A stretch of 53,745 nucleotides of DNA, taken from positions 1 through 53,745 of IMG/VR virus record IMGVR_UViG_3300010400_000009. One strand, given 5' to 3'. Of the stretch, positions 15,666 through 31,545 are shown in pieces. Each line of letters starts with the position of its first letter. Position 1 is the stretch's first letter. A program made the translations under genes and the position numbers. Origin of the DNA: a virus. Its lineage: Duplodnaviria; Caudoviricetes. The notes beneath the pieces are model-generated. The model saw nothing but the letters and a program-made list of their open reading frames with translations, made no database searches and was not told the origin of the DNA.

Positions 15666-15681
15666 TGTTTCACGTGAAACA
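15666..15681. promoter_or_regulatory. parS: parS consensus site 1
   Basis: TGTTTCACGTGAAACA, intergenic. Confidence 0.85.
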
Positions 15682-15707
15682 ATTTAACATTTAAGGATTA
15701 AATTAAT

Positions 15708-17027
15708 ATGCAAACTAATACCAAAAATCAAAATACAAACCATGAAGGCACAGTCATTCAAGTTATACCTCCATTTATTGAATTAAAACGGGCGGTAATG
15801 ACAACTTTATTAGGCGAAAATACTTTTTATGAAAGCGGTCAATCTGTAAAGGCTAGAATTAGCGAGTTAGTGCATAAATGTGAATTTGACGCAGTGCTAG
15901 ACTTAGCTATTGAAAGCAAAGAGCAAGCGAATTTAAGACATGCACCACTTTTAATATTAAAAGAATTAGCTAAACATGCAGGCTTAAAAGATTTTAACAA
16001 TGCCAAAGCATACCGCAATGCAATATTTAGGGTTTGCACACGTGCCGACGACTTAACCGAACTATTGGCTATGTACTGGGAAGGCGGACGTAAACCTATA
16101 GCTAAACAATTAAAATTAGGTTTAGCTCAAGCCTTCACAAAATTTAATGAATATGCATTAGGTAAATACAATCGTGATAAAGCAGTAAAATTAAAAGATG
16201 TTTTATTTATGGTTCATGCTAAACCAAAAGATACAGCACAGGCTGAATTATGGAAGCGTCTTATTGATAATAAACTCGCAACGCCTGATACATGGGAAGT
16301 TGCTTTGTCTGCTGGAAAAGATAAAAAAGAAACGTGGACAAGATTATTAAATGAAAATAAGCTAGGCTATTTAGCAGTACTTAGAAATTTAAGAAATATG
16401 CGAGATGTTGGCGTAGATGATAATTTAATAAAAGATAAATTAATAAATTCAAAAGGAAAAGAAAAAATACTACCGCACCAGTTTATAGCGGCCGCTTGTG
16501 TAAATCCTAGTCTTGAAAATTCTATAAATGACGCTTTACTTGAAAATTTATCTAATCATGAAAAATTAAAAGGTAAAACAATTATTTTAGTTGATGTATC
16601 GGGTTCTATGGAAAGCAAACTATCGGAAAAATCGGAAATGCGACTAATTGAAGCAGGTGCGGGAGTTGCTGCAATATGCCGTGAAATTTGCGAACAGGTT
16701 GAAATATTTGCATTTAGTAATGATGTTAGAGAAGTTCCTGCACGTCAAGGCATGGCTTTAATTGATAAATTAAAATCTATGTTAGGCGGCGGTACAAGTT
16801 TAGGCAAAGCAATAGATTTTTTGAATACTAAAGATTATGATAGAATTATTGTAATTACCGACGAACAGTCAAGCGACAAAGTGCAAGCTCCTAAAGGCAA
16901 GGGTTATATTGTAAATATTGCCCCTTATAAAATGCAGATAGGTTTCGGGGAATGGATTAGAATTAATGGGTTTAGTCAAAACTTAATTAAATATATTTTA
17001 GAACACGAGAAAGAAGGTATAGTATAG
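15708..17027 (+). CDS. rsr: Ro60/Rsr (TROVE plus vWA domain) RNA-binding protein
   Basis: NHEG, LLGENTFYESG, NLRHAP, RADDLTELLA, KFNEYALGKY, TPDTWEVALS, LRNLRN; MIDAS DVSGS and ITDEQ. Confidence 0.93.
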   Translation: MQTNTKNQNTNHEGTVIQVIPPFIELKRAVMTTLLGENTFYESGQSVKARISELVHKCEFDAVLDLAIESKEQANLRHAPLLILKELAKHAGLKDFNNAKAYRNAIFRVCTRADDLTELLAMYWEGGRKPIAKQLKLGLAQAFTKFNEYALGKYNRDKAVKLKDVLFMVHAKPKDTAQAELWKRLIDNKLATPDTWEVALSAGKDKKETWTRLLNENKLGYLAVLRNLRNMRDVGVDDNLIKDKLINSKGKEKILPHQFIAAACVNPSLENSINDALLENLSNHEKLKGKTIILVDVSGSMESKLSEKSEMRLIEAGAGVAAICREICEQVEIFAFSNDVREVPARQGMALIDKLKSMLGGGTSLGKAIDFLNTKDYDRIIVITDEQSSDKVQAPKGKGYIVNIAPYKMQIGFGEWIRINGFSQNLIKYILEHEKEGIV

Positions 17028-17272
17028 AACCTAACGCATTAGATGATATTAGCTCTAATGCACAACTAGAGCTAATTAAGTTCATCAAAGCCGAGCGGCA
17101 AAAGCAAGATATTAATCCGCACAAACTAAGTTTTTTAGCTGGCGGAATTAATATTTATCGCTTTGAAAATAACACACATAATCATAAATTAAAGGATATT
17201 ATTAAAATTCTTAATATTTTAGGCTATACTTTGGATATAAAACATTTAAAAAAAAAGGTAAATCATGGATAA
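17024..17272 (+). CDS. XRE-family HTH regulator, probable ATA start (not in ORF track)
   Basis: Open frame reads ...LIKFIKAERQKQDINPHKLSFLAGGINIYRFENNTHNHKLKDIIKILNILGYTL... There is an in-frame TAA at 16988 and no ATG/GTG/TTG ahead of the HTH. GAAGG lies 6 nt before an ATA that overlaps the Ro60 stop. Confidence 0.65.
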   Translation: MEPNALDDISSNAQLELIKFIKAERQKQDINPHKLSFLAGGINIYRFENNTHNHKLKDIIKILNILGYTLDIKHLKKKVNHG

Positions 17273-17495
17273 AATTATAAAATATAGCATGTTATTAGTA
17301 TCAGTAATTGTTACTGGTTTAATATTTTTGCTCGGGTTTGCTGTTTATGATGAGATGACTTTTAAAGATAAAACAGATAAATTCATTACGGCGAATAACT
17401 GCAAAGGCACAAATAACGCAGTTGGTACACGCTATACTGTGCAGCAGGAATTTATTTGTAAGGATTATCAGTCTTTTTGGTTAAGAGTTAAATAA
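17265..17495 (+). CDS. Small membrane-anchored protein with two Cys
   Basis: N-terminal TM segment; RBS AAGG. Confidence 0.65.
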   Translation: MDKIIKYSMLLVSVIVTGLIFLLGFAVYDEMTFKDKTDKFITANNCKGTNNAVGTRYTVQQEFICKDYQSFWLRVK

Positions 17496-17497
17496 TT

Positions 17498-17644
17498 TTA
17501 ATTTTGCAATGAATTATGAAAATTTATTGCAAACCCAATAAGCCATACGGCTTTTTGAAATTGTGTAGCTGTATCAATAAAAATCAAAGCTAAACCGCAT
17601 GCAGTTGCACATATGCACGATATAAGAAATAATATTTTTGTCAT
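17498..17644 (-). CDS. Small hydrophobic protein, 48 aa (not in ORF track)
   Basis: MTKILFLISCICATACGLALIFID...; ATGA coupling to the upstream ORF. Confidence 0.5.
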   Translation of the reverse strand: MTKILFLISCICATACGLALIFIDTATQFQKAVWLIGFAINFHNSLQN

Positions 17645-17817
17645 AAAAAAGAATAAGTGAAATATTTAAGGTTGCATAAAACACAAATAAAAAATGTAAG
17701 AATTCCCGCTATAGCAGTTACTATAAATAGATTGCTCCGCTCCGCCTTGCCATTCAAAAAATTTAATATAAGAAAACTGCCCAACATTACATAAGCACTA
17801 ATTATTAGACACAGCAT
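17641..17817 (-). CDS. Small two-TM protein, 58 aa (not in ORF track)
   Basis: MLCLIISAYVMLGSFLILNFL...LFIVTAIAGILTFFICVL... Confidence 0.5.
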   Translation of the reverse strand: MLCLIISAYVMLGSFLILNFLNGKAERSNLFIVTAIAGILTFFICVLCNLKYFTYSFL

Positions 17818-18256
17818 TGTACTTGCTCCCGTATTTTTCTAACAGGCTATCTATATGCTTATTTATTGTATCTTTAAAATTTGCATTAAATTTTATAAAA
17901 TCAAATGTTTTAATATTTATATTTTCTACAATTTTAATAAGCGGTTCGCAACAGCCTATAGAAATTATTATCTTTTCGGGGTTACTGGAACTTACATCAA
18001 AATAAAATGTTAAGGTAAAATCCTTTTTAGTATGCAATTTTAGTTCTAGTTCATCTATATGCATATCTGAATAAGTAGACTTGCAATAATTAATATATGT
18101 ATGCGTTAGCTCATATTTGCTTAATACAGGGTGGCTTTTAAATAATTCTATATACTTATTTAAATTCTCTGATACTATGCTTATTGCTTCGTGATAATTA
18201 AACTTGATTGCACGCATTGTCTGCCTTACATTTAAATAATTGATTAATGAGTTCAT
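17798..18256 (-). CDS. Hypothetical protein, possible paralogue of 18198-18566
   Basis: Similar segments ELELKLH/CLELIFNFH and FNANFKDTINKHIDSL/FNNKAKNIINELINQL. Confidence 0.6.
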   Translation of the reverse strand: MNSLINYLNVRQTMRAIKFNYHEAISIVSENLNKYIELFKSHPVLSKYELTHTYINYCKSTYSDMHIDELELKLHTKKDFTLTFYFDVSSSNPEKIIISIGCCEPLIKIVENINIKTFDFIKFNANFKDTINKHIDSLLEKYGSKYNAVSNN

Positions 18257-18566
18257 TTATAATATTCTTAGCTTTATTATTAAAAGCTTTGTAAGCTACA
18301 GTGTCAAGGCGACCTACTGTTTTTGTTGTATTAAAATCAAGTATAAATACCAATAAATAATTATAATCAATTTTTATATTAATTTTTAATTTACTGGTGC
18401 TATGAAAATTAAAAATTAATTCTAAACAATCATCATCAATTAAATTTATGCTATATCTTGGTATACATTTATATAATTTTTTGATATTAGAATTTTTTAA
18501 TATTAATTCCTGAATTGCATTAATATTACTTTTTGTTATTTCATTTAATCCGTATTGATTTATCAT
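18198..18566 (-). CDS. Hypothetical protein
   Basis: First ORF of a very AT-rich leftward unit. Confidence 0.6.
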   Translation of the reverse strand: MINQYGLNEITKSNINAIQELILKNSNIKKLYKCIPRYSINLIDDDCLELIFNFHSTSKLKINIKIDYNYLLVFILDFNTTKTVGRLDTVAYKAFNNKAKNIINELINQLFKCKADNACNQV

Positions 18567-18824
18567 ATTTTAATACTATGTATGACTTTAAATTGCATTT
18601 TTTTCATTTTTAACACTTATTTTTATAGTAGAATATTTATACTTTAATAATTTATATATGTCAATTAATTTTTAATTAAAGACATAAAAAAATACGCTAA
18701 AACAACAGAATTAGCGTATTTAAAATAAAAAGACAAACATTTAAAAAAGATTAAAAATGTATTTGCATAAATACATTACATATGCATTATAGGTTAAATT
18801 TATTTATATTGCAATCGGGGCGGA

Positions 18825-18853
18825 TTGACACAAGAAAAACTACAATGTATTAT
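18825..18853 (+). promoter_or_regulatory. Sigma70 promoter
   Basis: TTGACA-17-TATTAT upstream of rusA. Confidence 0.65.
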
Positions 18854-18920
18854 TAAAAAATAAAAATATGAGACAAAACAAGTGAATAATGCAAATTATG
18901 CATAATTCACAAATATAAAA

Positions 18921-19304
18921 ATGATTATCTTAAAATTACCTATTCCGCCAAGTATTAATAAATATTATGGCACTAAAAATGATAAATCAAAATTTTTACT
19001 TGATGAAGTTAAGTTGTTTCGCTGGGAAACCCTTATCGAAGTAAAAAAATTGAAAATTAAGCCGCTTAATGGAAGTGTGCAATTGCGTATATTATTTGTA
19101 TTTAAAGATAAACGTAAGCATGATGTAGATAACCGCATAAAATCATTGCAAGACGCTTTACAGATAGCAGGATTATTTGCTGATGATGTACAGGTAAATA
19201 ATTCAAACTTAGCTAAAATGTATAAGAAAAGCGATAAAAGCTACGTTCTTGTACGTGTTGATAATTCCCAAAACATAATTAATGAGGATTGGATAAATGA
19301 TTAA
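18921..19304 (+). CDS. rusA: Holliday junction resolvase RusA
   Basis: LPIPPSINKYY; DKRKHDVDNRIKSLQDAL...DDVQV. Confidence 0.9.
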   Translation: MIILKLPIPPSINKYYGTKNDKSKFLLDEVKLFRWETLIEVKKLKIKPLNGSVQLRILFVFKDKRKHDVDNRIKSLQDALQIAGLFADDVQVNNSNLAKMYKKSDKSYVLVRVDNSQNIINEDWIND

Positions 19305-19758
19305 AAGATTAGCTTTAATTTGTGCATTTTTTGCACAAACTGCATTTGCTGCTGAATTTGTTAAAAATCACGACGGCGATACAATAAAGATAAGCGAGGC
19401 TGGGCAGATTGTAACTATTAGGCTTGAATATATAGACGCACCAGAACTTAAGCAAACTATGGGCAAGGAAGCAAAAGAGGCATTATATAATTTATGCAGT
19501 AAAGCAGATATTACTTATACGCAAAGCAATAAAAAAAGCTTTAATCGGGTAGTGAGTGAGTTATATTGTAATCATACAAATGTAAATCAATATCTAGTTA
19601 AAAATGGGTTTGCTATACTGGATTATAGGTATGCTAAAGGCAAGACTGATTATATAGCTTTAGAGAGTGAGGCGAAGCAAAATAGGCGTGGAGTATGGAA
19701 TATAGAGAATATGCATACCCCCAAAGAGTGCCGAACTGATAAAAAAATGTGCATGTAA
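19297..19758 (+). CDS. Secreted thermonuclease (SNase family)
   Basis: Signal peptide ending AFA; DGDT, IRLEYIDAPE, EAKQNRRGVW. Confidence 0.9.
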   Translation: MIKRLALICAFFAQTAFAAEFVKNHDGDTIKISEAGQIVTIRLEYIDAPELKQTMGKEAKEALYNLCSKADITYTQSNKKSFNRVVSELYCNHTNVNQYLVKNGFAILDYRYAKGKTDYIALESEAKQNRRGVWNIENMHTPKECRTDKKMCM

Positions 19759-19858
19759 ATATTTGTTGTATTTTTGATATATTTGTATAGTATCTATTTA
19801 TCTTTTTGCTACAGTGTATTAATATGAATTAAGACAAACGGCTTAAAGGTAATAAAAT

Positions 19859-20329
19859 ATGACTGCTGAAAATATAGATGTCGATTTCATTAAAAGACTT
19901 ATTCAAGATGAAATTAGCAAAATTCAATCAATTAATCAAGCTTGCACAATATCCAAAAACAAAAACAATACTCATCTTGCTATTGGTATTGCTTTTCTTG
20001 GCGTAATGTGTGCAGGCTCTATTGCTTTAATAAGCAATAATTCTAAACCGATAATAAAAGATGTTGTTTCTAATGCACCAGCTCAAAATAATAATTATTC
20101 TGAATATATTAATAAAAATCAAGAAAACACACAGAAATTTTATAAAATTGATAACAAGCCATTTAGTCGCAACTTCCCCGCTCCACCTGTTACTAGTGTT
20201 AAAAATGCAAAAATTTATTTAACTGATAGAAATAAATTACAACAGAAGGTAAAAAAAGCACAGCATGAAGATGAAATTAGTAAAATTGTAGCAGATAATC
20301 ATATTAAAAATATAATTAGGGGACAATAA
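19859..20329 (+). CDS. Hypothetical single-TM protein
   Basis: TM segment LAIGIAFLGVMCAGSIALI. Confidence 0.65.
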   Translation: MTAENIDVDFIKRLIQDEISKIQSINQACTISKNKNNTHLAIGIAFLGVMCAGSIALISNNSKPIIKDVVSNAPAQNNNYSEYINKNQENTQKFYKIDNKPFSRNFPAPPVTSVKNAKIYLTDRNKLQQKVKKAQHEDEISKIVADNHIKNIIRGQ

Positions 20330-20613
20330 TGTATCAAACTTTGAAAGCACAAGCAGAGGCTCTACTTTGCAGATTTAGAGATAAACAAACTGTATTAAAT
20401 GAAATAAATTACTATAAAAGTAATTGCACAGATACAGAGAAGGCAGGCGTTAGAATAGCAATATTATATGATGAATTAGATAAGATACAGTGCCAAGAAC
20501 GAGCAGTTGCATTAATTGAATTGGCAAATACGCAAGTGTTTTTTAATCATTTAAACCAAGCAAAAGCGTTTTATCAAAAAGCAATTTTAGTTTTAGAAAA
20601 TTTAAGGGCATAA
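20329..20613 (+). CDS. Hypothetical helical (TPR-like) protein
   Basis: Coupled ORF; AKAFYQKAI. Confidence 0.55.
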   Translation: MYQTLKAQAEALLCRFRDKQTVLNEINYYKSNCTDTEKAGVRIAILYDELDKIQCQERAVALIELANTQVFFNHLNQAKAFYQKAILVLENLRA

Positions 20614-20634
20614 TTTGCAGATAATTATTTATGA

Positions 20635-20650
20635 TGTTTCACGTGAAACA
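20635..20650. promoter_or_regulatory. parS: parS consensus site 2
   Basis: TGTTTCACGTGAAACA within a 24-bp perfect palindrome (20631-20654) between convergent genes. Confidence 0.85.
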
Positions 20651-20660
20651 TCATTTTATT

Positions 20661-21347
20661 TTATAAGTTTTCTTTAAAGAATGGGATAAACCCGCCTTGT
20701 ATTGTATAAGGTACTGGAGTTAAAGCATCGCCTTGAATATCACAACCATTTAATTTAGTAATGTTTTTATACCAAGTATGCTTAAATTCATTATGTATTT
20801 TTTTAGTTTCTACAATTAAATGAAATCCGCCACGAGTAACCAATATTTTACATGCCTCTTGATTAATAAAACTATATATATCATTTAGCACACTCATATC
20901 TTTTGTGTCGAAATCAATATCTACAAAATGCTTAGTGCCAATAGATTTTTGTACTTCGCTCATTACCTCAAAATGCGGATTAAAGCCATTGTAATGCATT
21001 AAAGATAAGTCTACTAATTTATGTATTGCTTGCTTGTTAGCTTTGATTAAGTCTCTAGGGTTTAAGTTTATATATAAAGCTATAGCCTCCTGCGGTACAA
21101 TTAAATCACGCCGCATATACGAACCAAGAGGGCATTCTAATTGCTTAATTTTATTAAATATATTCTCTTTTTTGCATGTAAAACGTGCAAGTTGGTATTT
21201 ATCTGTTTTTACATTGGCAAGTTCGGGAAAGTATTTGCCACGAGCCAATAAAGCTATGTAATATACTTCATGCGGTTTTAATTCGGGTAGCCATTCAATA
21301 AATTTAATTAGATTTTGCTCATCTGAAATAATTTTATAATTAATCAT
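20661..21347 (-). CDS. Hypothetical protein with AEP/primase-polymerase-like motifs
   Basis: FVDIDFD and VTRGGFHLIV. Confidence 0.45.
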   Translation of the reverse strand: MINYKIISDEQNLIKFIEWLPELKPHEVYYIALLARGKYFPELANVKTDKYQLARFTCKKENIFNKIKQLECPLGSYMRRDLIVPQEAIALYINLNPRDLIKANKQAIHKLVDLSLMHYNGFNPHFEVMSEVQKSIGTKHFVDIDFDTKDMSVLNDIYSFINQEACKILVTRGGFHLIVETKKIHNEFKHTWYKNITKLNGCDIQGDALTPVPYTIQGGFIPFFKENL

Positions 21348-21353
21348 ATTTTT

Positions 21354-21563
21354 TTAATCTTTTTTAATAATATCATAAATTGTTATATTATTTATCCTTT
21401 CTCCCCTTGGCTTTATCCATCTACGACGTTTTAATTCATTGATACATAAATGTACTGTACTACGTGCAAGATTTAATTTCTCGGATATATCTACGACGCT
21501 CATACTGCTATTCTGTTTGAGTAATTCAAACACGTCATTTAAATTTGGTTCTCTACTTCTCAT
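21354..21563 (-). CDS. Small winged-HTH transcription regulator
   Basis: MSVVDISEKLNLARSTVHLCINELKRRRWI. Confidence 0.8.
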   Translation of the reverse strand: MRSREPNLNDVFELLKQNSSMSVVDISEKLNLARSTVHLCINELKRRRWIKPRGERINNITIYDIIKKD

Positions 21564-21592
21564 AATGCAATGTCTTTTATTGTTTTAATCCG

Positions 21593-21655
21593 ATTGTACT
21601 ATAAATAAGACACAAAAGCAAAATAGTTGCAATTCTTATTCATACAGTGTATGAT
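21593..21655. promoter_or_regulatory. Back-to-back divergent sigma70 promoters with operator
   Basis: Leftward TTGCTT-17-TACAAT (21593-21621); rightward TTGCAA-17-TATGAT (21627-21655); TCATACA-g-TGTATGA at 21640-21654. Confidence 0.65.
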
Positions 21656-21875
21656 TAAATGATACCCGTTCTTTAAAAGTTAGCTATAAAAATAAAGATT
21701 TTTATTAAGACAACCGTACAATAAAATACGCATGTTTTCTTAAGTTTTTTAATCAAATTATGCCGAACTTGTAAATAAAGTTTGCAAGTTCGACAATAAG
21801 TAATTAATGATAAACATATTTAATGGTATGTTTATTTTTGATTTACTTAACCAATTAAAAACATGAGGGCAAACC

Positions 21876-22139
21876 ATGGAATTTGATTATAGCGATAGTG
21901 AATTTTTATCACGAAAAAAACAAGTAGAGAGCTTATTGAATAATAAGTATCACTGCTCTTTAAAAGATTTACACGTATTTAATAATGATTTACAGGATAA
22001 AAGAGATAGCACTCAATTATTCTTTGACATTGGTAAAAATACCGACATTTTTATTGACGTAAGACGTGGCGAAAATTTAGAGGTAGGCGAATTTAGAATT
22101 GTAAATCATATTTACGAAAATTTAATATTAAAAAGTTAG
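21876..22139 (+). CDS. Hypothetical protein
   Basis: RBS GAGG; first ORF of the rightward early operon. Confidence 0.65.
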   Translation: MEFDYSDSEFLSRKKQVESLLNNKYHCSLKDLHVFNNDLQDKRDSTQLFFDIGKNTDIFIDVRRGENLEVGEFRIVNHIYENLILKS

Positions 22140-22146
22140 GGTTATT

Positions 22147-22350: not shown

Positions 22351-22469
22351 TAATATGCATGAAACATTTAAGGAATATTACTACCGCATAAATAACTGCT
22401 GCTTAGAAAGTAAATATATATTTGGCTGTAGCAAGCGAATAGCAGTAAAAGAATTTTTTAAATTAAAAA

Positions 22470-22485
22470 TGTTTCACGTGAAACA
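22470..22485. promoter_or_regulatory. parS: parS consensus site 3
   Basis: TGTTTCACGTGAAACA just before the RBS of ORF 22500. Confidence 0.85.
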
Positions 22486-22499
22486 CTAAAGAGGCAAAC

Positions 22500-24159: not shown

Positions 24160-24687
24160 ATGTCTGTAAATAAAGTGATTTTAGTCGGTAATTTAGGAGC
24201 TGACCCTGATGTAAAGTACACAGCACACGGCGACGCAGTAGTTACGCTATCAATTGCAACATCAGAAACTAGGAAGGATAAACAAAGCGGGGAAAAGAAA
24301 ACAGCTACAGAATGGCATAGAGTTGTATTTTTTGGTGACCTAGCTGAAATTTGTAATAAATGGCTTAAAAAAGGTTCGCAGATTTATATTGAAGGTAAAT
24401 TGCGTACAAAAAAATGGCAAGACCAACAGGGCAACGATAGATATACAACTGAAATTTTAGCCGATACTATGCGTATGCTGGGCGGCAATAAAGATAAAAA
24501 TAATCAAGTTGGCACTAGTTATGATGATGAAAACCATTACAACGATAACCGCCAACAACCAACGCCAAACAATGCATATAAAAATAAGGATAGTTACGAG
24601 AAAGCCAAACAAAATGTTGATTATTCTACTAAGCCAATTGTTACTGACGGCAGTTCTGCTTTTGATGACGATGATATTCCATTTTAA
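24160..24687 (+). CDS. ssb: Single-stranded DNA-binding protein
   Basis: [21 protein letters not shown] and C-terminal DDDDIPF. Confidence 0.97.
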
Positions 24688-24730: not shown

Positions 24731-24851
24731 ATAAGACAAACAATCATGCTGAATAAAATAAATATTAAAACTATATATCCGCCTCCCAAAGAATTAAGGC
24801 GGGTTATTTATAAAACAAAGCTTAAACATATTAAAAAATAGAGACATACAA

Positions 24852-25796
24852 ATGATAATACTTAGTTTGTTTGACGGCATATCATGTGCTAGGGTTGCTT
24901 TAGAGCGTGCAAAAATCCCAATTACCGCATATTATGCAAGCGAGATAGATAAGTACGCTTTGCAGGTATCAGAGAAAAATTACCCTGATATTAAAAGGTT
25001 AGGCGATGTTACCAAAATATTAGCAGGCGATATAAATACTTTATTTAAACCTGATTTATTAATCGGCGGTTCGCCTTGTCAAAATTTAAGTGTGGCGGGT
25101 AATGGCATGGGACTTTTAGGCGAAAAATCAATACTATTTTATGAATATGTACGTATTTTACTTTTCACTAAACCAAAGTATTTTATTTTGGAAAATGTAG
25201 CCTCTATGAAGCCAGCAGATAAAAATAAAATATCGGAAGTACTAGGGATTGAAGCCATAATGTTAGACGCAAGTTTAGTTTCGGCACAGAGCCGTAAAAG
25301 GCTGTTCTGGGTTGGTATTTTAGAGGGCGATAAATATATTAAAGCTGATATTTCTATTCCAAAAGATAGAAATATTTATTTAAAAGATATAATCGAAAGC
25401 GGGGAGGTTGATAGGTTAAAATCTTATTGCTTAGACGCTTCTTATTATAAAGGAGCTAGCTGGAAACAATATAAAGAAAGGGGGAGCAGGCAGCTTGTAA
25501 AATTAGGGCATGTAAATAATTCAGATAGCCAAGGTAACCGTATTTACGATTTTAGCGGTAAAAGTGCAACACTACAATCTGCTTCGGGTGGATTAGGTGC
25601 AAAATGCGGATTATACACAGATAGTACAAGCAATGATAATATTATACGCAAACTAACGCCTACAGAATGCGAAACCCTAATGGGATTAGAGAAGGGATAT
25701 ACAAGCGGTATAAGCGATACCCAGCGTTATAAATGCATTGGTAACGCTTTTCATGTAGATATTATAAGTCATATTTTAAAGGAGCTAATTAAATGA
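24852..25796 (+). CDS. DNA (cytosine-5) methyltransferase
   Basis: LSLFDG, GGSPCQ, ENV, QSRKR, RKLTPTEC, GNA. Confidence 0.95.
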   Translation: MIILSLFDGISCARVALERAKIPITAYYASEIDKYALQVSEKNYPDIKRLGDVTKILAGDINTLFKPDLLIGGSPCQNLSVAGNGMGLLGEKSILFYEYVRILLFTKPKYFILENVASMKPADKNKISEVLGIEAIMLDASLVSAQSRKRLFWVGILEGDKYIKADISIPKDRNIYLKDIIESGEVDRLKSYCLDASYYKGASWKQYKERGSRQLVKLGHVNNSDSQGNRIYDFSGKSATLQSASGGLGAKCGLYTDSTSNDNIIRKLTPTECETLMGLEKGYTSGISDTQRYKCIGNAFHVDIISHILKELIK

Positions 25797-25993
25797 AGTT
25801 TGACAAAAAAGCAGAAAATGCAATGCGATTATTAAGCCAGTGGTCGATGATTGGATTATGTGCATTCATGCTTATTACAATGGTTTTATTATCGGCATTT
25901 GCAATTTTTGCAATATATAAATATATGTTTTTCAATATATAAAATTAATTTATGTATGACAAAAAATACCATACATTAAAAAGGAGCAATAAA

Positions 25994-26626
25994 ATGGGTA
26001 GAGAAATAAGACGAGTGCCTGCTAATTGGCAGCACCCGAAATACATTAGAGAGACATATAGCGGTTATATATTATGTTATAAAGCAATGTGCCAATGGTC
26101 GTATGATGAAGCTATAGAAAGTTATAAAAATCAAATAGAGGAATTTAAAGAAGCCTACAATTTGTATAAAAATGGTTTTATCATGTTTGAAAATCATTGT
26201 GTAACTATAAAGGATTATTGCCAAAAATATATAGATAAATATTTAAAGCCTGCTGATAAAAAATTTAGTGCATACGAGAAGTGCTGGTTAGTTATGGAAC
26301 ATGGGCTTGAAACTGGTACATTAGATATTGAATATATATTTAATATACCAAAATATCCCGACCCGCAACGTTATATGCCAACTGGCGAATGGTATCAATT
26401 GTATGAAACTGTAAGCGAAGGCACGCCATTAAGCCCGCCTTTTGAAACTGCCGACCAGCTTATAGATTGGCTTAGTAATAATTTAGATTATAGAGGCACG
26501 CAATGGAGCAGGGAGGCGGCTACAAATATTTTAAAAGTCGGGTTTGCGGTTAGCCTGATAGTAAATAATGGCGAAATGTATACGCCTGAACAACAACATT
26601 TAATTAAAGAGGCTCAAAATGATTGA
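25994..26626 (+). CDS. Conserved phage hypothetical protein (start reassigned to 25994)
   Basis: MGREIRRVPANWQHP and YQLYETVSEGTPLSPPF; AAGGAG RBS. Confidence 0.7.
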   Translation: MGREIRRVPANWQHPKYIRETYSGYILCYKAMCQWSYDEAIESYKNQIEEFKEAYNLYKNGFIMFENHCVTIKDYCQKYIDKYLKPADKKFSAYEKCWLVMEHGLETGTLDIEYIFNIPKYPDPQRYMPTGEWYQLYETVSEGTPLSPPFETADQLIDWLSNNLDYRGTQWSREAATNILKVGFAVSLIVNNGEMYTPEQQHLIKEAQND

Positions 26627-27323
26627 AAATATAGCAGTTGGCATTGACTTTGAAACTACGGGATTAGATGAAAATAGCCAAATTATAGAGTATGCTTTAG
26701 TTCGCTACTGCACCAAAACAAGCAAGATTATTACTTGCTTATCAAATTTAGTTAATCCTTGTATAGAAATACCACAAGAAGCACAAGAGCTTACAGGCAT
26801 AACTCAAGACATAGTTGAGAGTTATGCAATTTCTTTAGAAACGGCTACTACTCATATTAGTAGCTTTTTATCAAAAGCGACTTATTTAATAGCTCACAAT
26901 GCAGAATTTGAACTATCTTATTTAAATAAATTAAATATTGATTTATCACATTTGCAAATTGTAGATACGATGAAAGATATTGATTATCCAAGCAATATGA
27001 AACATAGAGACCTAGACCGCCTAGCACTTTATCATAAATGCCCAAATTTTGCAGCACATAGAGCATTGCCTGATACGTTAGCTATGATGAATATTCTAGC
27101 TCAATATAATTTTAGTGATGTATTAGCATATAAAGCTATATCAAATATTAAAATAATTTCTTTGGCTGGTTTTGATAAAAAAGACTTAGTTAAAAGCTTA
27201 GGGTTTAGCTGGGACGCTACTTTAAAATATTGGTACATGGATTGCAAAGAAAATAAAGCAGAAAATGTATTTGAATTATTATTGACTAATAATATTAAAT
27301 ACCAAATTTATACTAAGGAGTAA
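26619..27323 (+). CDS. DEDDh 3'-5' exonuclease (DnaQ-like) with small C-terminal domain
   Basis: DFETTG, AHNAEFE, HRALPD; C-terminal KDLVKSLGFSWD...WY. Confidence 0.9.
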   Translation: MIENIAVGIDFETTGLDENSQIIEYALVRYCTKTSKIITCLSNLVNPCIEIPQEAQELTGITQDIVESYAISLETATTHISSFLSKATYLIAHNAEFELSYLNKLNIDLSHLQIVDTMKDIDYPSNMKHRDLDRLALYHKCPNFAAHRALPDTLAMMNILAQYNFSDVLAYKAISNIKIISLAGFDKKDLVKSLGFSWDATLKYWYMDCKENKAENVFELLLTNNIKYQIYTKE

Positions 27324-27327
27324 AAAC

Positions 27328-27558
27328 ATGCATTACGATGATTTAATCGAAAAAGAAGCAAAAATTAATTTAGCAGAACCAGTATTGAATACTAATAATT
27401 CATTACGAGACCATTTTGCTGGGCTATCAATGCAAAATATGCTTAAACATGCATTAAGTTTAAGATATACAGTAATAAATACAGAAAGTATTGCCACAGA
27501 AGCTTATAAAATGGCTGACGCAATGCTAAAAGCTCGTGAATTAAATAACAAGGAGTAA
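27328..27558 (+). CDS. Conserved phage small protein
   Basis: SLRDHFAG...AYKMADAMLKAR. Confidence 0.75.
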   Translation: MHYDDLIEKEAKINLAEPVLNTNNSLRDHFAGLSMQNMLKHALSLRYTVINTESIATEAYKMADAMLKARELNNKE

Positions 27559-27564
27559 TTCAAG

Positions 27565-28665
27565 ATGAGAAAACAAGTAATTATGTTAGTAATAGCGACC
27601 ATGCTATCTAATAATGTTTTTGCCGCTTTCGGCGGGGGCGGGCGTAGTGTAAGTGTAGGGCGTAGCGTATCAGTTTCAAGAAGTGCCACGCCTGCACCTT
27701 CTAGACCAGTTAGCAATAATTCAAATAATAGTACAGTTAGCGGTGGGCGTAATATAGGCGTACAACGTACAGAAGTTACTAATAACTACAGACAACAACA
27801 GCAGGCACAGCAAAGCCAGCCAAATAGCCAAATTATGCCCCAGCAAAGCCAATATACAAGTTCTAGTTATAAACCATATTATGCACAGAATAACAATTAT
27901 GCGTCTCGTACGGATTATAACGATAGAAAATACAGCACTGGGCAGATAGTAGGCGGGGCGGTTGCTGGTATCGCTGCTGGAGCTTTAGCAGGTTATTTAA
28001 TACACAAAGCAACCGACGGAAGTACATATTATACACCGCCTAATAATCCAAGTGTTGCATATAATGCGAACGGGCAACAGTTGCAGGCTGTACCACAAGA
28101 AGCAAAAGCACAAACCATATCAAATAATACGACGCAAGCACAAGTTAGCCCAGCACCTCAATATATGCATTATCCGCAACCGCAAGGCAACGGCAATACA
28201 TGGCTATGGTTTTTATGGCTTATATTTATGCTTATTCTTGGTTTTGTATTATTTATTTTTTTAAAGTTAAATAGATTAAAAAACAATATGACAAATAAAA
28301 TTAATTTCAATCTGCCGACAAAAGATAGTTTAAATAATATTAAATATTCTTTTTTTTCTGATTTACAGAAGGCTTGGAAGCCTAGCTGTGCTAGTGTTGT
28401 GAAATATAATACTACTAAACAATTTTATGAACTCATCGAAAAAGATTTATTAAATGAACCCGAAAATAAAGAAATTGTTATACAAAAATATCAAGCAAGA
28501 TTAGTAAATGCGGATAGCAAAGAGGGAACAATACACTATCAAGCCGTTATATCTGTTAATGGAATTGACGAAAATATAGATGAATTCTGGCATTTTGAAT
28601 ATAAAGACTTTGCTTGGAAGTTAGCAGGTATTGAACAATATAATGAAAATTTAACTATATATTAA
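27565..28665 (+). CDS. Exported/membrane protein with C-terminal Tim44-like domain
   Basis: Signal peptide, G/S/R-rich segment, Gly-zipper, TM helix, then FSDLQKAW...EFWHF...WKLAGIEQ. Confidence 0.75.
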   Translation: MRKQVIMLVIATMLSNNVFAAFGGGGRSVSVGRSVSVSRSATPAPSRPVSNNSNNSTVSGGRNIGVQRTEVTNNYRQQQQAQQSQPNSQIMPQQSQYTSSSYKPYYAQNNNYASRTDYNDRKYSTGQIVGGAVAGIAAGALAGYLIHKATDGSTYYTPPNNPSVAYNANGQQLQAVPQEAKAQTISNNTTQAQVSPAPQYMHYPQPQGNGNTWLWFLWLIFMLILGFVLFIFLKLNRLKNNMTNKINFNLPTKDSLNNIKYSFFSDLQKAWKPSCASVVKYNTTKQFYELIEKDLLNEPENKEIVIQKYQARLVNADSKEGTIHYQAVISVNGIDENIDEFWHFEYKDFAWKLAGIEQYNENLTIY

Positions 28666-28685
28666 TTGAATTAAGGAGCTATAAA

Positions 28686-29465
28686 ATGTCGCATTCATAT
28701 TTAACAGTTGAAAAATTACCTACTAGAAATTTTAAAATAAATGATAGTTTAACTATAGTTGTTGAAGAAATCCACGACGATTATTTTAGAACATCTGTAG
28801 AGTTTTATATCGAACATATACAAGGCAGAGCAAAGCATATGATAGGTATGTGGGATAACGCCCGCACAACGTCATTTATCAATCAATTTATTTGTAATAA
28901 TGATGATGTGGATTTATCAAACGTTAGAGTTGGTAAAAAAATCGGCGAGATAGGCGTAGACGGCGGGCAAGTAATGATAGCCGACCCGTGCTATTTCTCA
29001 CATGATGAAAACGAACAAGAACATAATATTCAAAATAGAATACAGTTAGAACAAGCAAGAAACGATGCTATTTACCAACCCACATTACAGGTAAATTATC
29101 CTACTGGGCATGCAGGTTTAGCGGTTATATCAAGTACAAGTTATGGCGATGGCTCTTATGATTGTGTAGACTTAGTTGATGGCTCAAATAGAAAAATTGG
29201 TATAGGCGTAATTTTTGGAGGTTATGAAGAGAATATAAAAAGCCAATTAAATGATAGTGATATTATGCATATCGCAGGAAATTTAGAGCAAATACAAACG
29301 CTTTTAAATAATAAAAGCAAGGATTGTGCATTACAAAAATATCATAGCAAAGAGGACTTAATAGAGGATATGAAGCTGGCAACTGTAGTAATTCAAAATT
29401 TATTAAAATTCCTTGAAGACCCAAACACTAATTATGAAGTTGAAAACAACAAAGAGGATTTATAA
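28686..29465 (+). CDS. Hypothetical protein (DUF4241-like motifs)
   Basis: IGVDGGQVMIADPCY and SYGDGSY. Confidence 0.6.
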   Translation: MSHSYLTVEKLPTRNFKINDSLTIVVEEIHDDYFRTSVEFYIEHIQGRAKHMIGMWDNARTTSFINQFICNNDDVDLSNVRVGKKIGEIGVDGGQVMIADPCYFSHDENEQEHNIQNRIQLEQARNDAIYQPTLQVNYPTGHAGLAVISSTSYGDGSYDCVDLVDGSNRKIGIGVIFGGYEENIKSQLNDSDIMHIAGNLEQIQTLLNNKSKDCALQKYHSKEDLIEDMKLATVVIQNLLKFLEDPNTNYEVENNKEDL

Positions 29466-29834
29466 ATGAGTGGTTTATATAATATGATTTTTGGCACTAG
29501 CCAACTTGCACCATATGTATTGCATATGCTTGGCAAAAAGCCCGAGGATTTTGGCAGAATAAGAGACGCATTTATTAGTAATGGTTATTTACAGGTATAT
29601 ACAAGATGTGGCGGCGGCAACCGAGAAAGCTGCCAACATGTATTCGATGAAATAGCTAAACACCCGCTTTATTCGCATAATGCTGATGATGATTACGATA
29701 CTACATATTGCACTTTCTTTTTTAATATTCCTGATGAATATAAAGAAATATGCAAAGATATTCTTGATATGCCTAGCACATCGGAACGTTGGAAGCAGGC
29801 ATTAGAAGCCATGAGTGATAGTATTAATAAATAG
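29466..29834 (+). CDS. Conserved phage hypothetical protein
   Basis: LYNMIFG, GRIRD, YTRCGGGNRE, DDDYDTTY. Confidence 0.7.
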   Translation: MSGLYNMIFGTSQLAPYVLHMLGKKPEDFGRIRDAFISNGYLQVYTRCGGGNRESCQHVFDEIAKHPLYSHNADDDYDTTYCTFFFNIPDEYKEICKDILDMPSTSERWKQALEAMSDSINK

Positions 29835-29845
29835 ATATTAAATAG

Positions 29846-29874
29846 ATACCAAGATATATAATCTTGGTATTTTT
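29846..29874 (+). terminator. Hairpin, possible terminator
   Basis: ATACCAAGAT-atata-ATCTTGGTAT followed by TTTT. Confidence 0.5.
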
Positions 29875-29885
29875 ATAAGGTAATT

Positions 29886-30278
29886 ATGAAAAAAATATTT
29901 TTAGGCAAATGTTATACTGGCAAGCCCATAAAACAACACGCACTTCATCAAGAAATATACAATACGCAAGGTAGGGATTATTTACTTGTTTATGATAAAA
30001 AAGATTGTACCCCTATTTATGTTTATTACGATATTATTTACACAGAAACTAGCAAATCATGGTGCGATGCTGAAAAGTATAGTGGTAGAGCCTTCCCTCT
30101 TTGTAATGTTGAAAGTATTAAAGAAGCTAAATTGCTTTGTGATAAACACGCACATAGGAATAATGCAGAAAATCGCCGATTATCTAACAATGAGTATGAC
30201 GCAAAAATGAAAACAATTAATAAGCATAATCAAAAGCTTAGAGATAATTTTATGCATAAATTTATGCAGATATATTAA
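29886..30278 (+). CDS. Hypothetical protein
   Basis: RBS AAGG. Confidence 0.6.
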   Translation: MKKIFLGKCYTGKPIKQHALHQEIYNTQGRDYLLVYDKKDCTPIYVYYDIIYTETSKSWCDAEKYSGRAFPLCNVESIKEAKLLCDKHAHRNNAENRRLSNNEYDAKMKTINKHNQKLRDNFMHKFMQIY

Positions 30279-30310
30279 TCATTTAAGAAACATATAAATA
30301 TGGGTATAAA

Positions 30311-30616
30311 ATGAAAATAAAATATGATGAATTAATAAAAACATATAACGATAGGGAATGTGTTTTAGATATTGATAAAGTAATTAAAAAATGGAATAGC
30401 TTATTTTGGATAGCCCGCTGGCGAGATTATGATACAAACCAATTCAGTTATAGATTAATAGTTCGTTGGTCGAAAGTCGCAAGGGAGCGGTGCAGAATAA
30501 AATGTACTATTCCTGAAAATCAAGCAAAAGAACTTATTTGTAAATTAAACCTTTTGCCATTCCCTAGTTTTTTTAATAGCGGCACATCTTTTATAAAGGC
30601 AGAGCATGCAATTTAA
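30311..30616 (+). CDS. Hypothetical protein
   Basis: ORF in operon. Confidence 0.55.
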   Translation: MKIKYDELIKTYNDRECVLDIDKVIKKWNSLFWIARWRDYDTNQFSYRLIVRWSKVARERCRIKCTIPENQAKELICKLNLLPFPSFFNSGTSFIKAEHAI

Positions 30617-31025
30617 CATAATAAACAAAGCTGAACATTATAATACACATTCTAGCGGCATTGAATGTATAGACATAATAGAAAATTTATCTTTTTGCCT
30701 AGGCAGTGCAATAAAATATGTATGGCGTGCTGGCTTAAAATCAGATAATAAAAAACAAGATTTAGAAAAAGCAATTTACTATTTAAAAAGAGAACAGGAA
30801 CGGTTAGAGGAAATTGGCTACATGTATTCACAATTAAATATTAATGTTGATTATATAAATAAAATTTCTTTTGGTGAGGATTTATTAGCCTTATTTTTTC
30901 AAAAAATAAAGGAGCTTACTTTACCTGCAGTAAATAATACTGGGCTTTTTGTGGTTTTCAGTAGTAAAAAAGATAATATTTTATTAAATGAATTGATTAA
31001 ATTTATTAATAAAAATATAAATTAG
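30606..31025 (+). CDS. DUF3310 (SaV-like) protein
   Basis: HY...IECIDII...FCLGSAIKYVWRAGLK...QDLEKAIYYL. Confidence 0.85.
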   Translation: MQFNIINKAEHYNTHSSGIECIDIIENLSFCLGSAIKYVWRAGLKSDNKKQDLEKAIYYLKREQERLEEIGYMYSQLNINVDYINKISFGEDLLALFFQKIKELTLPAVNNTGLFVVFSSKKDNILLNELIKFINKNIN

Positions 31026-31031
31026 ATAAAT

Positions 31032-31051
31032 GCGGGACAACCCGCTTTTTT
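31032..31051 (+). terminator. Rho-independent terminator
   Basis: GCGGG-acaa-CCCGC followed by a T-run. Confidence 0.7.
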
Positions 31052-31066
31052 AATAGGAGCTAAGGA

Positions 31067-31507
31067 ATGAATGAAGTAAAAATACCGCAATTTAAAATAT
31101 ATAATATATCTGAAAAGATAGATAAAGATTTAATTTATATAAACTCAAATGATGAAGTTGTATACATTAGTACTAATAGTAATCATAAAATCTTATATGC
31201 CCAACCCTTATATGATGTTGTTATATGCAGGTTTACAGGCTATTTTTCTAAGCAAAATATACCTTTATATGCTGATGATATTGTGGAAGACGCAAAAGGT
31301 CGAATAATGCATATTACACGCACTAGACCTAATTATATTGGATTTAAACCTATTTATGAGACTAACTTTGATTTTACAAATAAAATGTGGGAGTGGGGCA
31401 TAAATTCTAAAACTAATAAAATAGACTTTAAAAGTTTAATATTAGATGTAGAAATTATAGGCAGTAAGTTTGAAACTCCCGAATTATTGGAGGCTACAAA
31501 TGAATAA
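31067..31507 (+). CDS. YopX-family protein
   Basis: CRFTG...LYADDIV...EIIGSKFETPELL. Confidence 0.7.
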   Translation: MNEVKIPQFKIYNISEKIDKDLIYINSNDEVVYISTNSNHKILYAQPLYDVVICRFTGYFSKQNIPLYADDIVEDAKGRIMHITRTRPNYIGFKPIYETNFDFTNKMWEWGINSKTNKIDFKSLILDVEIIGSKFETPELLEATNE

Positions 31508-31529
31508 TGATTTTAGATAAATTAAAAAA

Positions 31530-31545
31530 TGTTTCACGTGAAACA
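31530..31545. promoter_or_regulatory. parS: parS consensus site 4
   Basis: TGTTTCACGTGAAACA between two YopX genes. Confidence 0.85.

What the first reader, a model, noticed from the sequence alone, without database searches (positions are those of the whole stretch)
15666..31545. Four perfect host-type parS sites in a phage-plasmid with no partition genes
Seen: TGTTTCACGTGAAACA occurs at 15666, 20635, 22470 and 31530, all at gene boundaries within about 18 kb on one side of the iterons. I find no ParA/ParM/TubZ, no HTH-bearing ParB and no integrase. Established: this 16-mer is the widespread chromosomal parS consensus bound by ParB/Spo0J, which drives ParA segregation and SMC loading. Inference: the episome segregates by borrowing host ParB/ParA/SMC. 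ParB spreading could also dampen early genes, or the sites could titrate ParB during lytic growth.
Basis: partly seen in the sequence, partly recalled or inferred. Interest (0 to 1): 0.85.

Follow-up and report, generated by a model that had tools for sequence, protein, structure and literature searches.

The report
Host centromere sites on a phage
A soil phage with a plasmid-style replication origin carries four perfect copies of the bacterial chromosome's centromere sequence but no segregation genes of its own, so it probably rides on its host's chromosome-partition machinery, a trick so far documented only for the small Bacillus phage phi29.

Summary
TGTTTCACGTGAAACA occurs exactly four times (15666, 20635, 22470, 31530), with nothing else at up to 2 mismatches; shuffles give a mean of 0.01. 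All four sites sit between genes or within 20 nt of an ORF end (p about 1.6e-4), and only the 16-mer is conserved between them.

The window is a complete, circularly assembled 53.6-kb tailed phage from soil. It has a Rep3 initiator and four exact 22-bp iterons. Six-frame HMM searches found no ParA, ParM, TubZ, integrase, resolvase or rve transposase. Its only ParB-fold protein is a ParB_N-methylase fusion without a detectable ParB HTH.

The best host lead is a low-GC Burkholderiaceae lineage. It has a canonical parA-parB operon and one exact copy of the same parS.

The idea has a precedent. Phi29 carries five host-type parS sites and uses host Spo0J for spore entrapment (PMC2731898; my scan). 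In a capped scan of viral contigs, 26 records had at least 2 exact sites; none had ParB_N, ParA or a tyrosine integrase.

Verdict: these are very probably real host-ParB loading sites. Plasmid-like segregation is the best reading but is unproven, as is lysogeny. This is a new variant of a known kind.

The parts
15666..15681 (.). parS site 1. Exact 16-bp palindrome, non-coding, downstream of the tRNA cluster and 26 nt upstream of the Ro60/TROVE-like gene.
20635..20650 (.). parS site 2. Exact, non-coding, between convergent genes (stops at 20613 and 20661). The palindrome extends to 24 bp (20631-20654) and is followed by a T-run, so it also scores as terminator-like.
22470..22485 (.). parS site 3. 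Exact, 14 nt upstream of the ATG at 22500 (RBS AGAGG). It overlaps only the last codons of a doubtful 44-aa ORF.
31530..31545 (.). parS site 4. Exact, between the two YopX-like genes (stop at 31507; likely start at 31559 behind AAAGGA).
13171..13258 (+). Four contiguous exact 22-bp iterons (GGTTTCAGGTAAAAGAAAAGTG), followed by an AT-rich stretch. Putative theta-type origin, upstream of the leftward bro-rep operon.
11480..12175 (-). Rep3-family plasmid-type replication initiator (WH1 + WH2).
   Evidence: (Rep3_C 1.4e-12, Rep3_N 4.2e-05). Plasmid relatives are at about 25% identity and the ten commonest genera are all Proteobacteria. No match in 50,697 GenBank phage records.
12179..12850 (-). 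Bro-N / ORF6C protein (antirepressor-like), first gene of the leftward operon with rep.
13609..14391 (+). Protein resembling the C-terminal part of lambda O-like replication initiators (second possible initiator).
   Evidence: phrog_678, 2e-12
7945..9225 (-). ParB_N-fold fused to an N6/N4 DNA methylase, next to the small terminase. It is the only ParB-fold protein in the element. No HTH_ParB or ParB_C was detected, and its box II reads GHGRL.
   Evidence: This architecture is described as phage-enriched in PMC12704722 (passages).
21354..21563 (-). 69-aa winged-helix protein, first gene of the two-gene leftward unit that ends at parS site 2. It is the only nearby phage-encoded DNA-binding candidate.
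20661..21347 (-). 228-aa protein of a large uncharacterised phage family, probably with an AEP (PrimPol/RepB'-like) fold. Not linked to parS elsewhere.
   Evidence: weak fold matches. In 80 viral loci encoding relatives there were 0 parS-like sites.
24160..24687 (+). SSB. This is the gene that gives the host lead.

Best explanation
The four 16-mers are genuine nucleation sites for the host's chromosomal ParB, carried by a non-integrating tailed phage that replicates from a Rep3/iteron origin and encodes no partition proteins of its own.

Proposed mechanism (inferred): host ParB-CTP dimers load at the four sites and slide over the early/replication arm of the circular episome. The resulting partition complex is then handled like a chromosomal origin region. 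Host ParA positions and separates sister copies, and ParB may also load SMC. The phage genome is therefore inherited by both daughter cells while it persists without lysis, either as a plasmid prophage or as a carrier state.

This would be the same borrowing trick that phi29 uses for spore entrapment, transposed to a plasmid-type replicon in what is probably a non-sporulating, low-GC proteobacterial host.

Shown: the sites, their placement, the replicon, the lack of own par and integration genes, and ParA-ParB plus an identical parS in the best host candidate. Inferred: ParB binding, segregation, and persistence without lysis.
For: 1. The motif is exact four times, against 0.01 expected. The flanks are unrelated, so the conserved unit is just the 16-bp ParB-sized palindrome. 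All four sites avoid gene interiors (p about 1.6e-4).

2. The same 16-mer is the common chromosomal site in the candidate host's order: 102 of 201 genomes have at least one exact copy, mostly 1-3 per genome, while the reversed control gave 0 in all.

3. No own partition or integration genes were found. The only ParB-fold protein aligns to solved ParBs over residues 24-94 only and continues into a methylase.

4. A plasmid-type replicon is present: Rep3 plus four exact iterons and an AT-rich stretch. The assembly is circular: a 123-bp terminal repeat, and a 53,589-bp contig in one run, which may be the window's own source, closes on itself.

5. Host lead. The SSB gene is 82% and 79% identical at the DNA level over about 350 nt to the ssb of the two genomes of one genus. 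G027 of that genus is a 'Burkholderiaceae' MAG. There the ssb is chromosomal, the sampled stretches of its contigs have 28-33% GC against the phage's ~31% (26-35% across 2-kb bins), and a YopX-like gene is 43% identical. G027 has a parA-parB operon with full ParB_N+HTH+C and one exact parS.

6. Precedent. Phi29 has five parS sites, and host Spo0J is implicated in moving its genome into the prespore (PMC2731898, passages). My scan of NC_011048 finds four identical 1-mismatch sites plus one 3-mismatch site.

7. Recurrence. Of those stretches, 26 hold at least 2 sites and fall into 19 DNA-similarity groups. 0 of 26 records have ParB_N, AAA_31 or a tyrosine integrase. No window protein other than a distant TerL recurs widely across the 119 parS-bearing loci (ParB_N-methylase hits in 4 loci; four other proteins in one locus each). 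A host factor is therefore the only plausible common binder.
Against: - There is no binding, ChIP or stability data.
- The host is inferred from one gene with DNA-level similarity, plus GC content and one YopX-like gene. A portal search found no related prophage in 150 genomes of that family. The sister genome G053 has only two 2-mismatch sites and no exact site.
- No repressor or lysogeny module was recognised, so plasmid-prophage life is not shown.
- Many ORFs matched no Pfam or PHROGs family. The wHTH protein next to site 2, or another orphan protein, could bind the palindrome.
- No close relatives exist to test conservation: TerL, Rep3 and P0121 single-protein scans of viral contigs found none. 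The contigs of three soil runs are identical to the window.
- Clustering near the iterons is not significant.
- With 4 sites per copy against 1 in the candidate host chromosome, the element might act mainly as a ParB sink.
Confidence: 0.55

Rival explanations
1. ParB sink or host manipulation. The sites bind host ParB, but their selected function is to titrate it, or to mis-load SMC, during lytic replication. This would disturb host chromosome segregation, ParA-DnaA control or nucleoid organisation to the phage's benefit. Inheritance of the episome would be irrelevant.
For: The phage has 4 perfect sites per copy. The candidate host G027 has one site at up to 1 mismatch in about 2 Mb, and genomes of its order mostly have 1-3. 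Replicating phage DNA would therefore outnumber chromosomal sites many-fold. No lysogeny genes were recognised.
Against: A single site would titrate little less, and sinks need not avoid genes so strictly. The plasmid-type Rep3/iteron replicon and the absence of an integrase fit persistence. The one studied case, phi29, uses the sites for inheritance and not for damage (PMC2731898).
Confidence: 0.15
2. ParB-mediated silencing or insulation. Host ParB clamps spreading from four sites spaced 1.8-9.1 kb apart coat the early/replication arm (15.6-31.5 kb) and dampen early transcription or replication. This would help a quiescent state, with segregation as a by-product.
For: All sites lie in the rightward early arm at operon or gene junctions, three of them directly upstream of a gene start. 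Site 2 doubles as a terminator-like hairpin. Silencing by plasmid ParB proteins is known (recalled, not checked here).
Against: Chromosomal ParB spreading generally has little effect on transcription (recalled). The sites do not overlap the strongest promoter-like matches found. Nothing here tests expression.
Confidence: 0.1
3. A phage-encoded protein, not host ParB, binds the palindrome (for example the 69-aa winged-helix protein or an orphan). The sites would then be operators or a private centromere that merely coincides with parS.
For: A wHTH gene unit ends 10 bp from site 2. Many ORFs matched no Pfam or PHROGs family.
Against: A 16/16 identity to the chromosomal consensus in all four copies is very unlikely for an unrelated operator. 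Nineteen DNA-similarity groups of viral records carry the same exact 16-mer, but no window protein apart from a distant TerL recurs widely in those loci. The gene next to site 2 has relatives in 80 viral loci (1.39 Mb) with 0 parS-like sites at up to 2 mismatches. The wHTH protein resembles the wHTH of replication initiators.
Confidence: 0.08
4. Phi29-type spore entrapment. The host is a sporulating Bacillota, and the sites deliver the phage genome into the forespore through Spo0J.
For: Low GC, about 31%. YopX and XhlA-like hits are common in Bacillota phages. The phi29 precedent applies. 10 of the 14 small multi-parS viral records tested are protein-primed, phi29/tectivirus-like.
Against: The named SSB relatives in the 120 rows listed are all Gammaproteobacteria, and the best genome hit is a Burkholderiaceae MAG. 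Rep3 relatives in plasmids are proteobacterial. The nearest GenBank TerL relatives are phages of Gram-negative hosts. Spo0A boxes are not enriched: 2 found against 2.76 expected. No protein-primed polymerase is present.
Confidence: 0.05

Closest known systems
Bacillus phage phi29 (and Nf): host-type parS sites with host Spo0J, used for spore entrapment
   Same: A phage without any par genes carries several identical copies of the host chromosomal parS. Phi29 has 4 copies of TGTTTCACGTGGAACA plus 1 degenerate site; the paper counts five (PMC2731898). The window has 4 perfect copies. In both, a host ParB is the presumed or implicated binder, and the purpose is inheritance of a non-lysing phage genome.
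   Different: Phi29 is a 19-kb linear, protein-primed podovirus of a sporulating Bacillus. Its strategy also needs Spo0A boxes. The window is a 53.6-kb circularly assembled tailed phage with a Rep3/iteron replicon, no PF03175 polymerase, no enrichment of 0A boxes and a probable proteobacterial host. Among 27 multi-parS viral records it is the only one with Rep3_C.
Phage-plasmids with their own partition cassette (P1 parABS, N15 sopAB; recalled from general knowledge)
   Same: Tailed-phage structural genes together with a plasmid-type replicon, no integrase, and centromere-like sites on the element.
   Different: Those elements encode their own ParA and ParB and use private centromeres. Here no ParA, ParM, TubZ or HTH-ParB was found, and the centromere is the host's.
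Chromosomal parS stabilising an otherwise unstable plasmid
   Same: This is the experimental basis for the mechanism. Chromosomal par operons together with a single parS from the same genome stabilise unstable plasmids and position them correctly (review PMC7022226, passage read; primary papers not read).
   Different: Those are laboratory constructs. Here a natural mobile element appears to have adopted the arrangement, with four sites.
ParB-CTPase-fold / N6N4-methylase fusions of phages
   Same: The window's protein at 7945-9225 has exactly this architecture. It is described as frequent in phages and prophage regions (PMC12704722, passages).
   Different: It is not a partition ParB: no HTH or C-terminal dimerisation domain was detected. 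That paper reports a neighbouring parA consistently only for DUF3850 fusions. Its supplementary figures were not seen.

Membership tests
Chromosomal-type parS (ParB/Spo0J nucleation site) | A 16-bp palindrome matching the widespread consensus | tested here: met
   All four copies are 16/16. The consensus itself is recalled. It is backed here by 102 of 201 genomes of the candidate host's order carrying the exact 16-mer, against 0 for the reversed control, and by the near-identical phi29 sites.
Chromosomal-type parS (ParB/Spo0J nucleation site) | A canonical ParB (N-domain, HTH and C-domain) and a ParA are available in the cell | tested here: inconclusive
   Met for the best host candidate G027: an AAA_31 ParA next to ParB_N+HTH_ParB+ParB_C. 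However, the host itself is only inferred.
Chromosomal-type parS (ParB/Spo0J nucleation site) | Specific binding and spreading of ParB at the site | not testable with these tools
   Needs EMSA or ChIP-seq.
Chromosomal-type parS (ParB/Spo0J nucleation site) | Origin-proximal placement | tested here: inconclusive
   The sites lie 2.4-18.3 kb from the iterons on a 53.6-kb circle. The arc clustering gives p about 0.10.
Self-encoded ParABS / ParMRC / TubZRC partition cassette | An element-encoded partition NTPase | tested here: not met
   PF13614, PF01656, PF06406 and PF00091 gave no match at E<=1 in six frames. There is no Walker A motif in 148 ORFs.
Self-encoded ParABS / ParMRC / TubZRC partition cassette | An element-encoded centromere-binding protein (ParB with HTH) | tested here: not met
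   The only ParB_N hit is a methylase fusion. It aligns to solved ParB structures over residues 24-94 only.
Phi29-type Spo0J/parS spore entrapment | Several host-type parS sites on a phage that lacks par genes | tested here: met
Phi29-type Spo0J/parS spore entrapment | A sporulating Bacillota host and Spo0A boxes at early promoters | tested here: not met
   Host signals point to Proteobacteria. TGTCGAA occurs 2 times against 2.76 expected.
Phi29-type Spo0J/parS spore entrapment | A linear protein-primed genome (terminal protein, PolB) | tested here: not met
   PF03175 is absent from the window, although the same search found it in 10 of 14 other records. The window assembles as a circle with a 123-bp DTR.
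Phage-plasmid | Phage structural and packaging genes together with a plasmid-type replicon | tested here: met
   TerS, TerL, Mu-type portal, MuF and a tail protein; Rep3 plus iterons.
Phage-plasmid | No integration module | tested here: met
   PF00589, PF00239 and PF00665 gave no match at E<=1.
Phage-plasmid | Stable extrachromosomal lysogeny (repressor, immunity, carriage in host cells) | not testable with these tools
   No repressor was recognised. The element was seen only in soil metagenome contigs.

The most novel reading that the evidence does not exclude
Carrying several copies of the host's chromosomal parS, with no parAB, may be a general and largely unrecognised persistence strategy of non-integrating phages. 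It would reach well beyond phi29 and beyond spore-formers, letting many unrelated phage lineages hitch their genomes to host ParABS/SMC. This window would be its first plasmid-replicon (Rep3/iteron) example, in a Gram-negative host. In that host the element, with 4 sites against about 1 on the chromosome, would also compete with the chromosome for ParB.
Probability: 0.35. Interest if true: 0.75.

Novelty: new variant of a known kind. Interest (0 to 1): 0.6.

Why it matters
If correct, this shows that a phage-plasmid can dispense with a partition system altogether by copying the host's centromere. Current phage-plasmid detection and typing schemes, which lean on par genes, would miss such elements. 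It would extend the phi29 spore-entrapment paradigm to ordinary vegetative inheritance in non-sporulating bacteria.

It also gives a simple sequence marker for non-integrating phages that persist in their hosts: several exact host-type parS sites with no parAB and no integrase. Finally, it raises a testable question about competition for ParB and SMC between a chromosome with one site and an episome with four.

Tried and rejected
**Close relatives for a conservation test**
- Megablast of 13000-33000 found nothing in GenBank phages or PLSDB plasmids.
- Single-protein scans of viral contigs with TerL, Rep3 and P0121 found no relatives.
- The best TerL relative in the large protein database is 65% identical, on a 2.3-kb contig.
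- Synteny and conservation of the sites could therefore not be tested.

**Sequencing runs**
- Three soil-metagenome runs hold the element. One of them may be the window's own source.
- Their contigs show no differences from the window, so they carry no information about selection.
- The 'joints' and 'loose ends' at the parS and tRNA positions have GC-rich foreign flanks. I read them as contigs of other soil organisms that share the 16-mer or tRNA sequence, not as rearrangements or integration junctions.

**Host assignment**
- A portal search in 150 genomes of G027's family found nothing close.
- The listing of cluster members gave no organism names.

**Spore-entrapment reading**
- 0A boxes are not enriched.

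**P0121**
- The single-sequence fold was useless (pLDDT 31).
- With a 53-sequence alignment the model was confident (pLDDT 96).
- Foldseek against the PDB gave no hit at E<=0.001. AEP PrimPol and RepB' chains had the best TM-scores and probabilities, so 'AEP-like' is tentative.
- The P0121 family is not linked to parS: 0 sites in 80 loci.

**Other checks**
- Roseobacter phage CRP-902, the nearest named TerL relative at 31%, has no parS at up to 2 mismatches.
- Rfam found only tRNA matches.

**Literature**
- Searches for host-ParB or parS borrowing by phages or plasmids found nothing beyond the phi29 line: 0 papers; 0 papers.
- This covers only the held open-access and bioRxiv library.
- Livny et al. 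2007 is not held and Meijer et al. 2005 was not read.
- Supplements of PMC12704722, which may list contexts of ParB-methylase fusions, are closed and were not requested.

Full report
**What the window is**

The window is a whole IMG/VR virus record of 53,745 bp with a 123-bp direct terminal repeat, so it assembles as a circle of about 53.6 kb. A 53,589-bp contig in one soil-metagenome run closes on itself. Two further soil runs hold contigs identical to the window.

GC is about 31%. The element has no nucleotide-level relative in GenBank phages or PLSDB plasmids. Its large terminase is at most 31% identical to any GenBank phage; the best matches are Roseobacter, Aeromonas, Rhizobium and Cellulophaga phages. 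In a 5.8-billion-protein database the best terminase match is 65% identical, on a 2.3-kb contig. The element is an orphan.

**The observation**

TGTTTCACGTGAAACA occurs exactly at 15666, 20635, 22470 and 31530. Nothing else matches at up to 2 mismatches. Shuffles give a mean of 0.01, and 0 of 100 reach four. One 3-mismatch site lies at 2801. No isolated half-sites exist.

Aligning the four sites with 50-nt flanks shows that only the 16-mer is conserved. The repeated unit is therefore the ParB-sized palindrome and not a duplicated cassette.

All four sites are intergenic or within 20 nt of the end of a maximal ORF, which gives p about 1.6e-4. Site 2 sits between convergent genes. There the palindrome extends to 24 bp followed by a T-run, so it also looks like a terminator. 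That all four lie on one side of the iterons within a 15.9-kb arc is not significant (p about 0.10).

**Anatomy of the element**

- *Late genes:* small and large terminase, a Mu-type portal, a MuF-like protein and a tail-morphogenesis protein.
- *Leftward bro-rep operon:* a Bro-N/ORF6C protein and a Rep3-family initiator. Upstream lie four contiguous exact 22-bp iterons and an AT-rich stretch.
- *Rightward early arm (13.4-32.5 kb), which holds all four sites:*
  - an O-like initiator fragment;
  - tRNA-Met, tRNA-Asp and a third tRNA-like element;
  - a Ro60/TROVE-vWA protein, RusA, a staphylococcal-type nuclease, an exonuclease and SSB;
  - a C5 methylase, an RNase T-like exonuclease, DUF3310 and two YopX-like proteins.
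- *Leftward pair ending 10 bp from site 2:* a 69-aa winged-helix protein and a 228-aa protein.
  - The 228-aa protein belongs to a large unnamed family, with 928 representatives at E<=0.001.
  - It folds confidently with a 53-sequence alignment (pLDDT 96).
  - Its best structural neighbours, none reaching E<=0.001, are AEP primase-polymerases and RepB'.

**Is it really without partition and integration genes?**

Six-frame HMM searches of the whole record found nothing at E<=1 for any of these families, while the control genomes did give matches:

| Family | Role |
|---|---|
| AAA_31 | ParA |
| CbiA | ParA |
| StbA_N | ParM |
| Tubulin | TubZ |
| Phage_integrase | tyrosine integrase |
| Resolvase | serine recombinase |
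| rve | transposase |

None of 148 ORFs of at least 50 aa has a classical Walker A motif.

ParB_N does match once, in the 426-aa protein beside the small terminase. That protein is a ParB_N + N6/N4-methylase fusion (phrog_498, 1.4e-139). Against solved structures it aligns to ParB/Spo0J/Noc over residues 24-94 only. No HTH_ParB or ParB_C domain was detected. A recent survey describes this fusion as a frequent phage architecture that is not associated with parA (PMC12704722, passages read; supplements not seen).

**Host**

- *SSB, named relatives:* these are Gammaproteobacteria (Thiogranum, Arenicella, Woeseia).
- *SSB, genome scan:* among one genome for each of 185,579 species, the best full-length match (63%) is the ssb of a 'Burkholderiaceae bacterium' MAG, G027.
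- *SSB, DNA level:* the phage ssb is 82% identical over 352 nt to G027 and 79% identical to G053. These are the two genomes of that genus that are held.
- *G027 itself:*
  - its ssb sits among housekeeping genes;
  - the sampled stretches of its contigs have 28-33% GC;
  - it carries a YopX-like gene 43% identical to the phage's.
- *Rep3:* relatives in PLSDB are about 25% identical, and the ten commonest genera are all Proteobacteria.

These leads make a low-GC proteobacterium, possibly this lineage, the best host guess. The evidence is not strong: no related prophage was found with the portal in 150 genomes of the family.

G027 has a parA-parB operon with a full-length ParB. It has one exact copy of the 16-mer, between leuS and rnc. 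G053 has only two 2-mismatch sites. In the order as a whole, 102 of 201 genomes have at least one exact copy, usually 1-3, against 0 for the reversed control. The phage therefore carries more perfect sites in 53.6 kb than almost any of these multi-megabase chromosomes.

**Precedent**

The idea that a phage without par genes borrows host ParB through host-type parS is not new. [quoted passage not shown] Spo0A boxes repress the lytic cycle (PMC2731898, passages read). That paper cites Meijer et al. 2005, which I did not read.

My scan of NC_011048 finds four identical sites one mismatch from the perfect palindrome, plus one 3-mismatch site. This mirrors the window's four identical copies.

The rest of the phi29 scheme does not fit here:
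- the host signals are proteobacterial;
- 0A boxes are at chance level;
- there is no protein-primed polymerase;
- the genome is a circle with a Rep3/iteron replicon.

**How general is it?**

| Measure | Result |
|---|---|
| Reversed palindrome of the same composition | 2 stretches |
| Stretches with at least 2 exact sites | 26 |
| DNA-similarity groups among those 26 | 19 |
| Records with ParB_N / AAA_31 / tyrosine integrase | 0 of 26 for each (8 of the 26 are at least 90% complete) |
| Small records encoding a protein-primed PolB | 10 of 14 tested |
| Larger records encoding it | 0 of 12 |
| Records with Rep3_C, window included | 1 of 27 (the window only) |

The protein-primed records are phi29- or tectivirus-like, so the scan recovers the known class. 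One group of the larger records has 3-5 sites clustered beside a terminase distantly related to the window's.

No window protein other than that distant TerL recurs widely in the parS-bearing loci. The neighbour of site 2 has relatives in 80 viral loci (1.39 Mb) with no parS-like site at up to 2 mismatches. The only plausible common binder of this 16-mer across unrelated phages is therefore a host protein.

**Interpretation**

I put about 0.8 on the sites being real host-ParB loading sites under selection. Within that, the best-supported function is ParABS-assisted (and possibly SMC-assisted) inheritance of a non-integrated, Rep3-replicated phage genome. I give about 0.55 to the whole statement. 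The grounds are:
- the plasmid-type replicon;
- the lack of an integrase;
- the experimental fact that chromosomal par operons with a single parS stabilise unstable plasmids (review PMC7022226, passage);
- the phi29 analogy.

The rivals are:
- ParB/SMC titration during lytic growth, made plausible by 4 sites against about 1 in the candidate host;
- ParB-mediated dampening of the early arm;
- a phage-encoded binder;
- true spore entrapment in a Bacillota host.

None is excluded, and the first two could coexist with segregation. What is missing is any evidence of lysogeny, a confirmed host, and any binding or stability data.

**Novelty and score**

This is a new variant of a known kind. The kind (host-type parS on a par-less phage) has been known since phi29. 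The new elements are the replicon type, the genome form, the probable Gram-negative non-sporulating host, and the implied vegetative, plasmid-like use. My literature searches in the held library found no report beyond the phi29 line, but subscription papers are not covered. I score interest at 0.6: a specialist would find it neat and testable rather than astonishing, and the apparent breadth of the phenomenon in viral contigs adds value.

Noticed in passing
window 15408-17027: tRNA-Met, tRNA-Asp and a third tRNA-like element (15564-15640, found by Rfam only) lie directly upstream of a Ro60/TROVE-vWA gene. This layout recalls bacterial Rsr with a Y-RNA-like partner that has a tRNA-like module. 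parS site 1 sits between the RNA genes and the Ro60 gene.
   Followed up: partly
L026, L065, L077 (also L109, L072) from viral contigs: A group of viral contigs with about 50% GC carries 3-5 exact parS sites packed into about 1 kb right beside a large terminase that is 26% identical to the window's. About 17 further single-site loci also have this TerL family within a few kb of the site. No ParB_N or ParA was found in the multi-site records.
   Followed up: partly
G023 (= L104), 11,725-bp viral record with inverted terminal repeats: Exact parS sites lie at 132 and 11579, one near each end of a small protein-primed linear genome and probably within its terminal repeats.
   Followed up: no
G277:C2:104-2771 (a genome of the order of G027): The contig holds a tandem array of exact parS sites at a period of about 220 bp. 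The genome has 20 exact copies in all, far above the 1-3 seen in the other genomes.
   Followed up: no
window 20661-21347 (-): This 228-aa protein has no Pfam or PHROGs match but belongs to a large family: 928 representatives at E<=0.001, and 80 viral loci including records of 300-500 kb. It gives a confident AF2 model, and its nearest folds are AEP PrimPol and RepB' primases. It looks like an unnamed phage primase-like family.
   Followed up: partly
window 33458-35976 (-): The lysis region contains an M15 peptidase, a DUF1353 protein, a two-TM holin-like ORF and a 57-aa lipoprotein (lipobox LNGC) that could be a spanin component. Next to it lies an HD_4 (ppGpp-hydrolase-like) gene.
   Followed up: no
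window 13171-13192 compared with the parS sites: The iteron begins GGTTTCAGGT, which matches 8 of the first 10 bases of the parS half-site TGTTTCACGT. This is probably coincidence.
   Followed up: no
window 24852-25796 and 7945-9225: The element encodes two DNA methylases: a C5 enzyme and the ParB_N-N6/N4 fusion. parS contains CACGTG/ACGT; only 10 CACGTG occur in the window, 4 of them in the sites. Whether phage methylation touches the sites is unknown.
   Followed up: no
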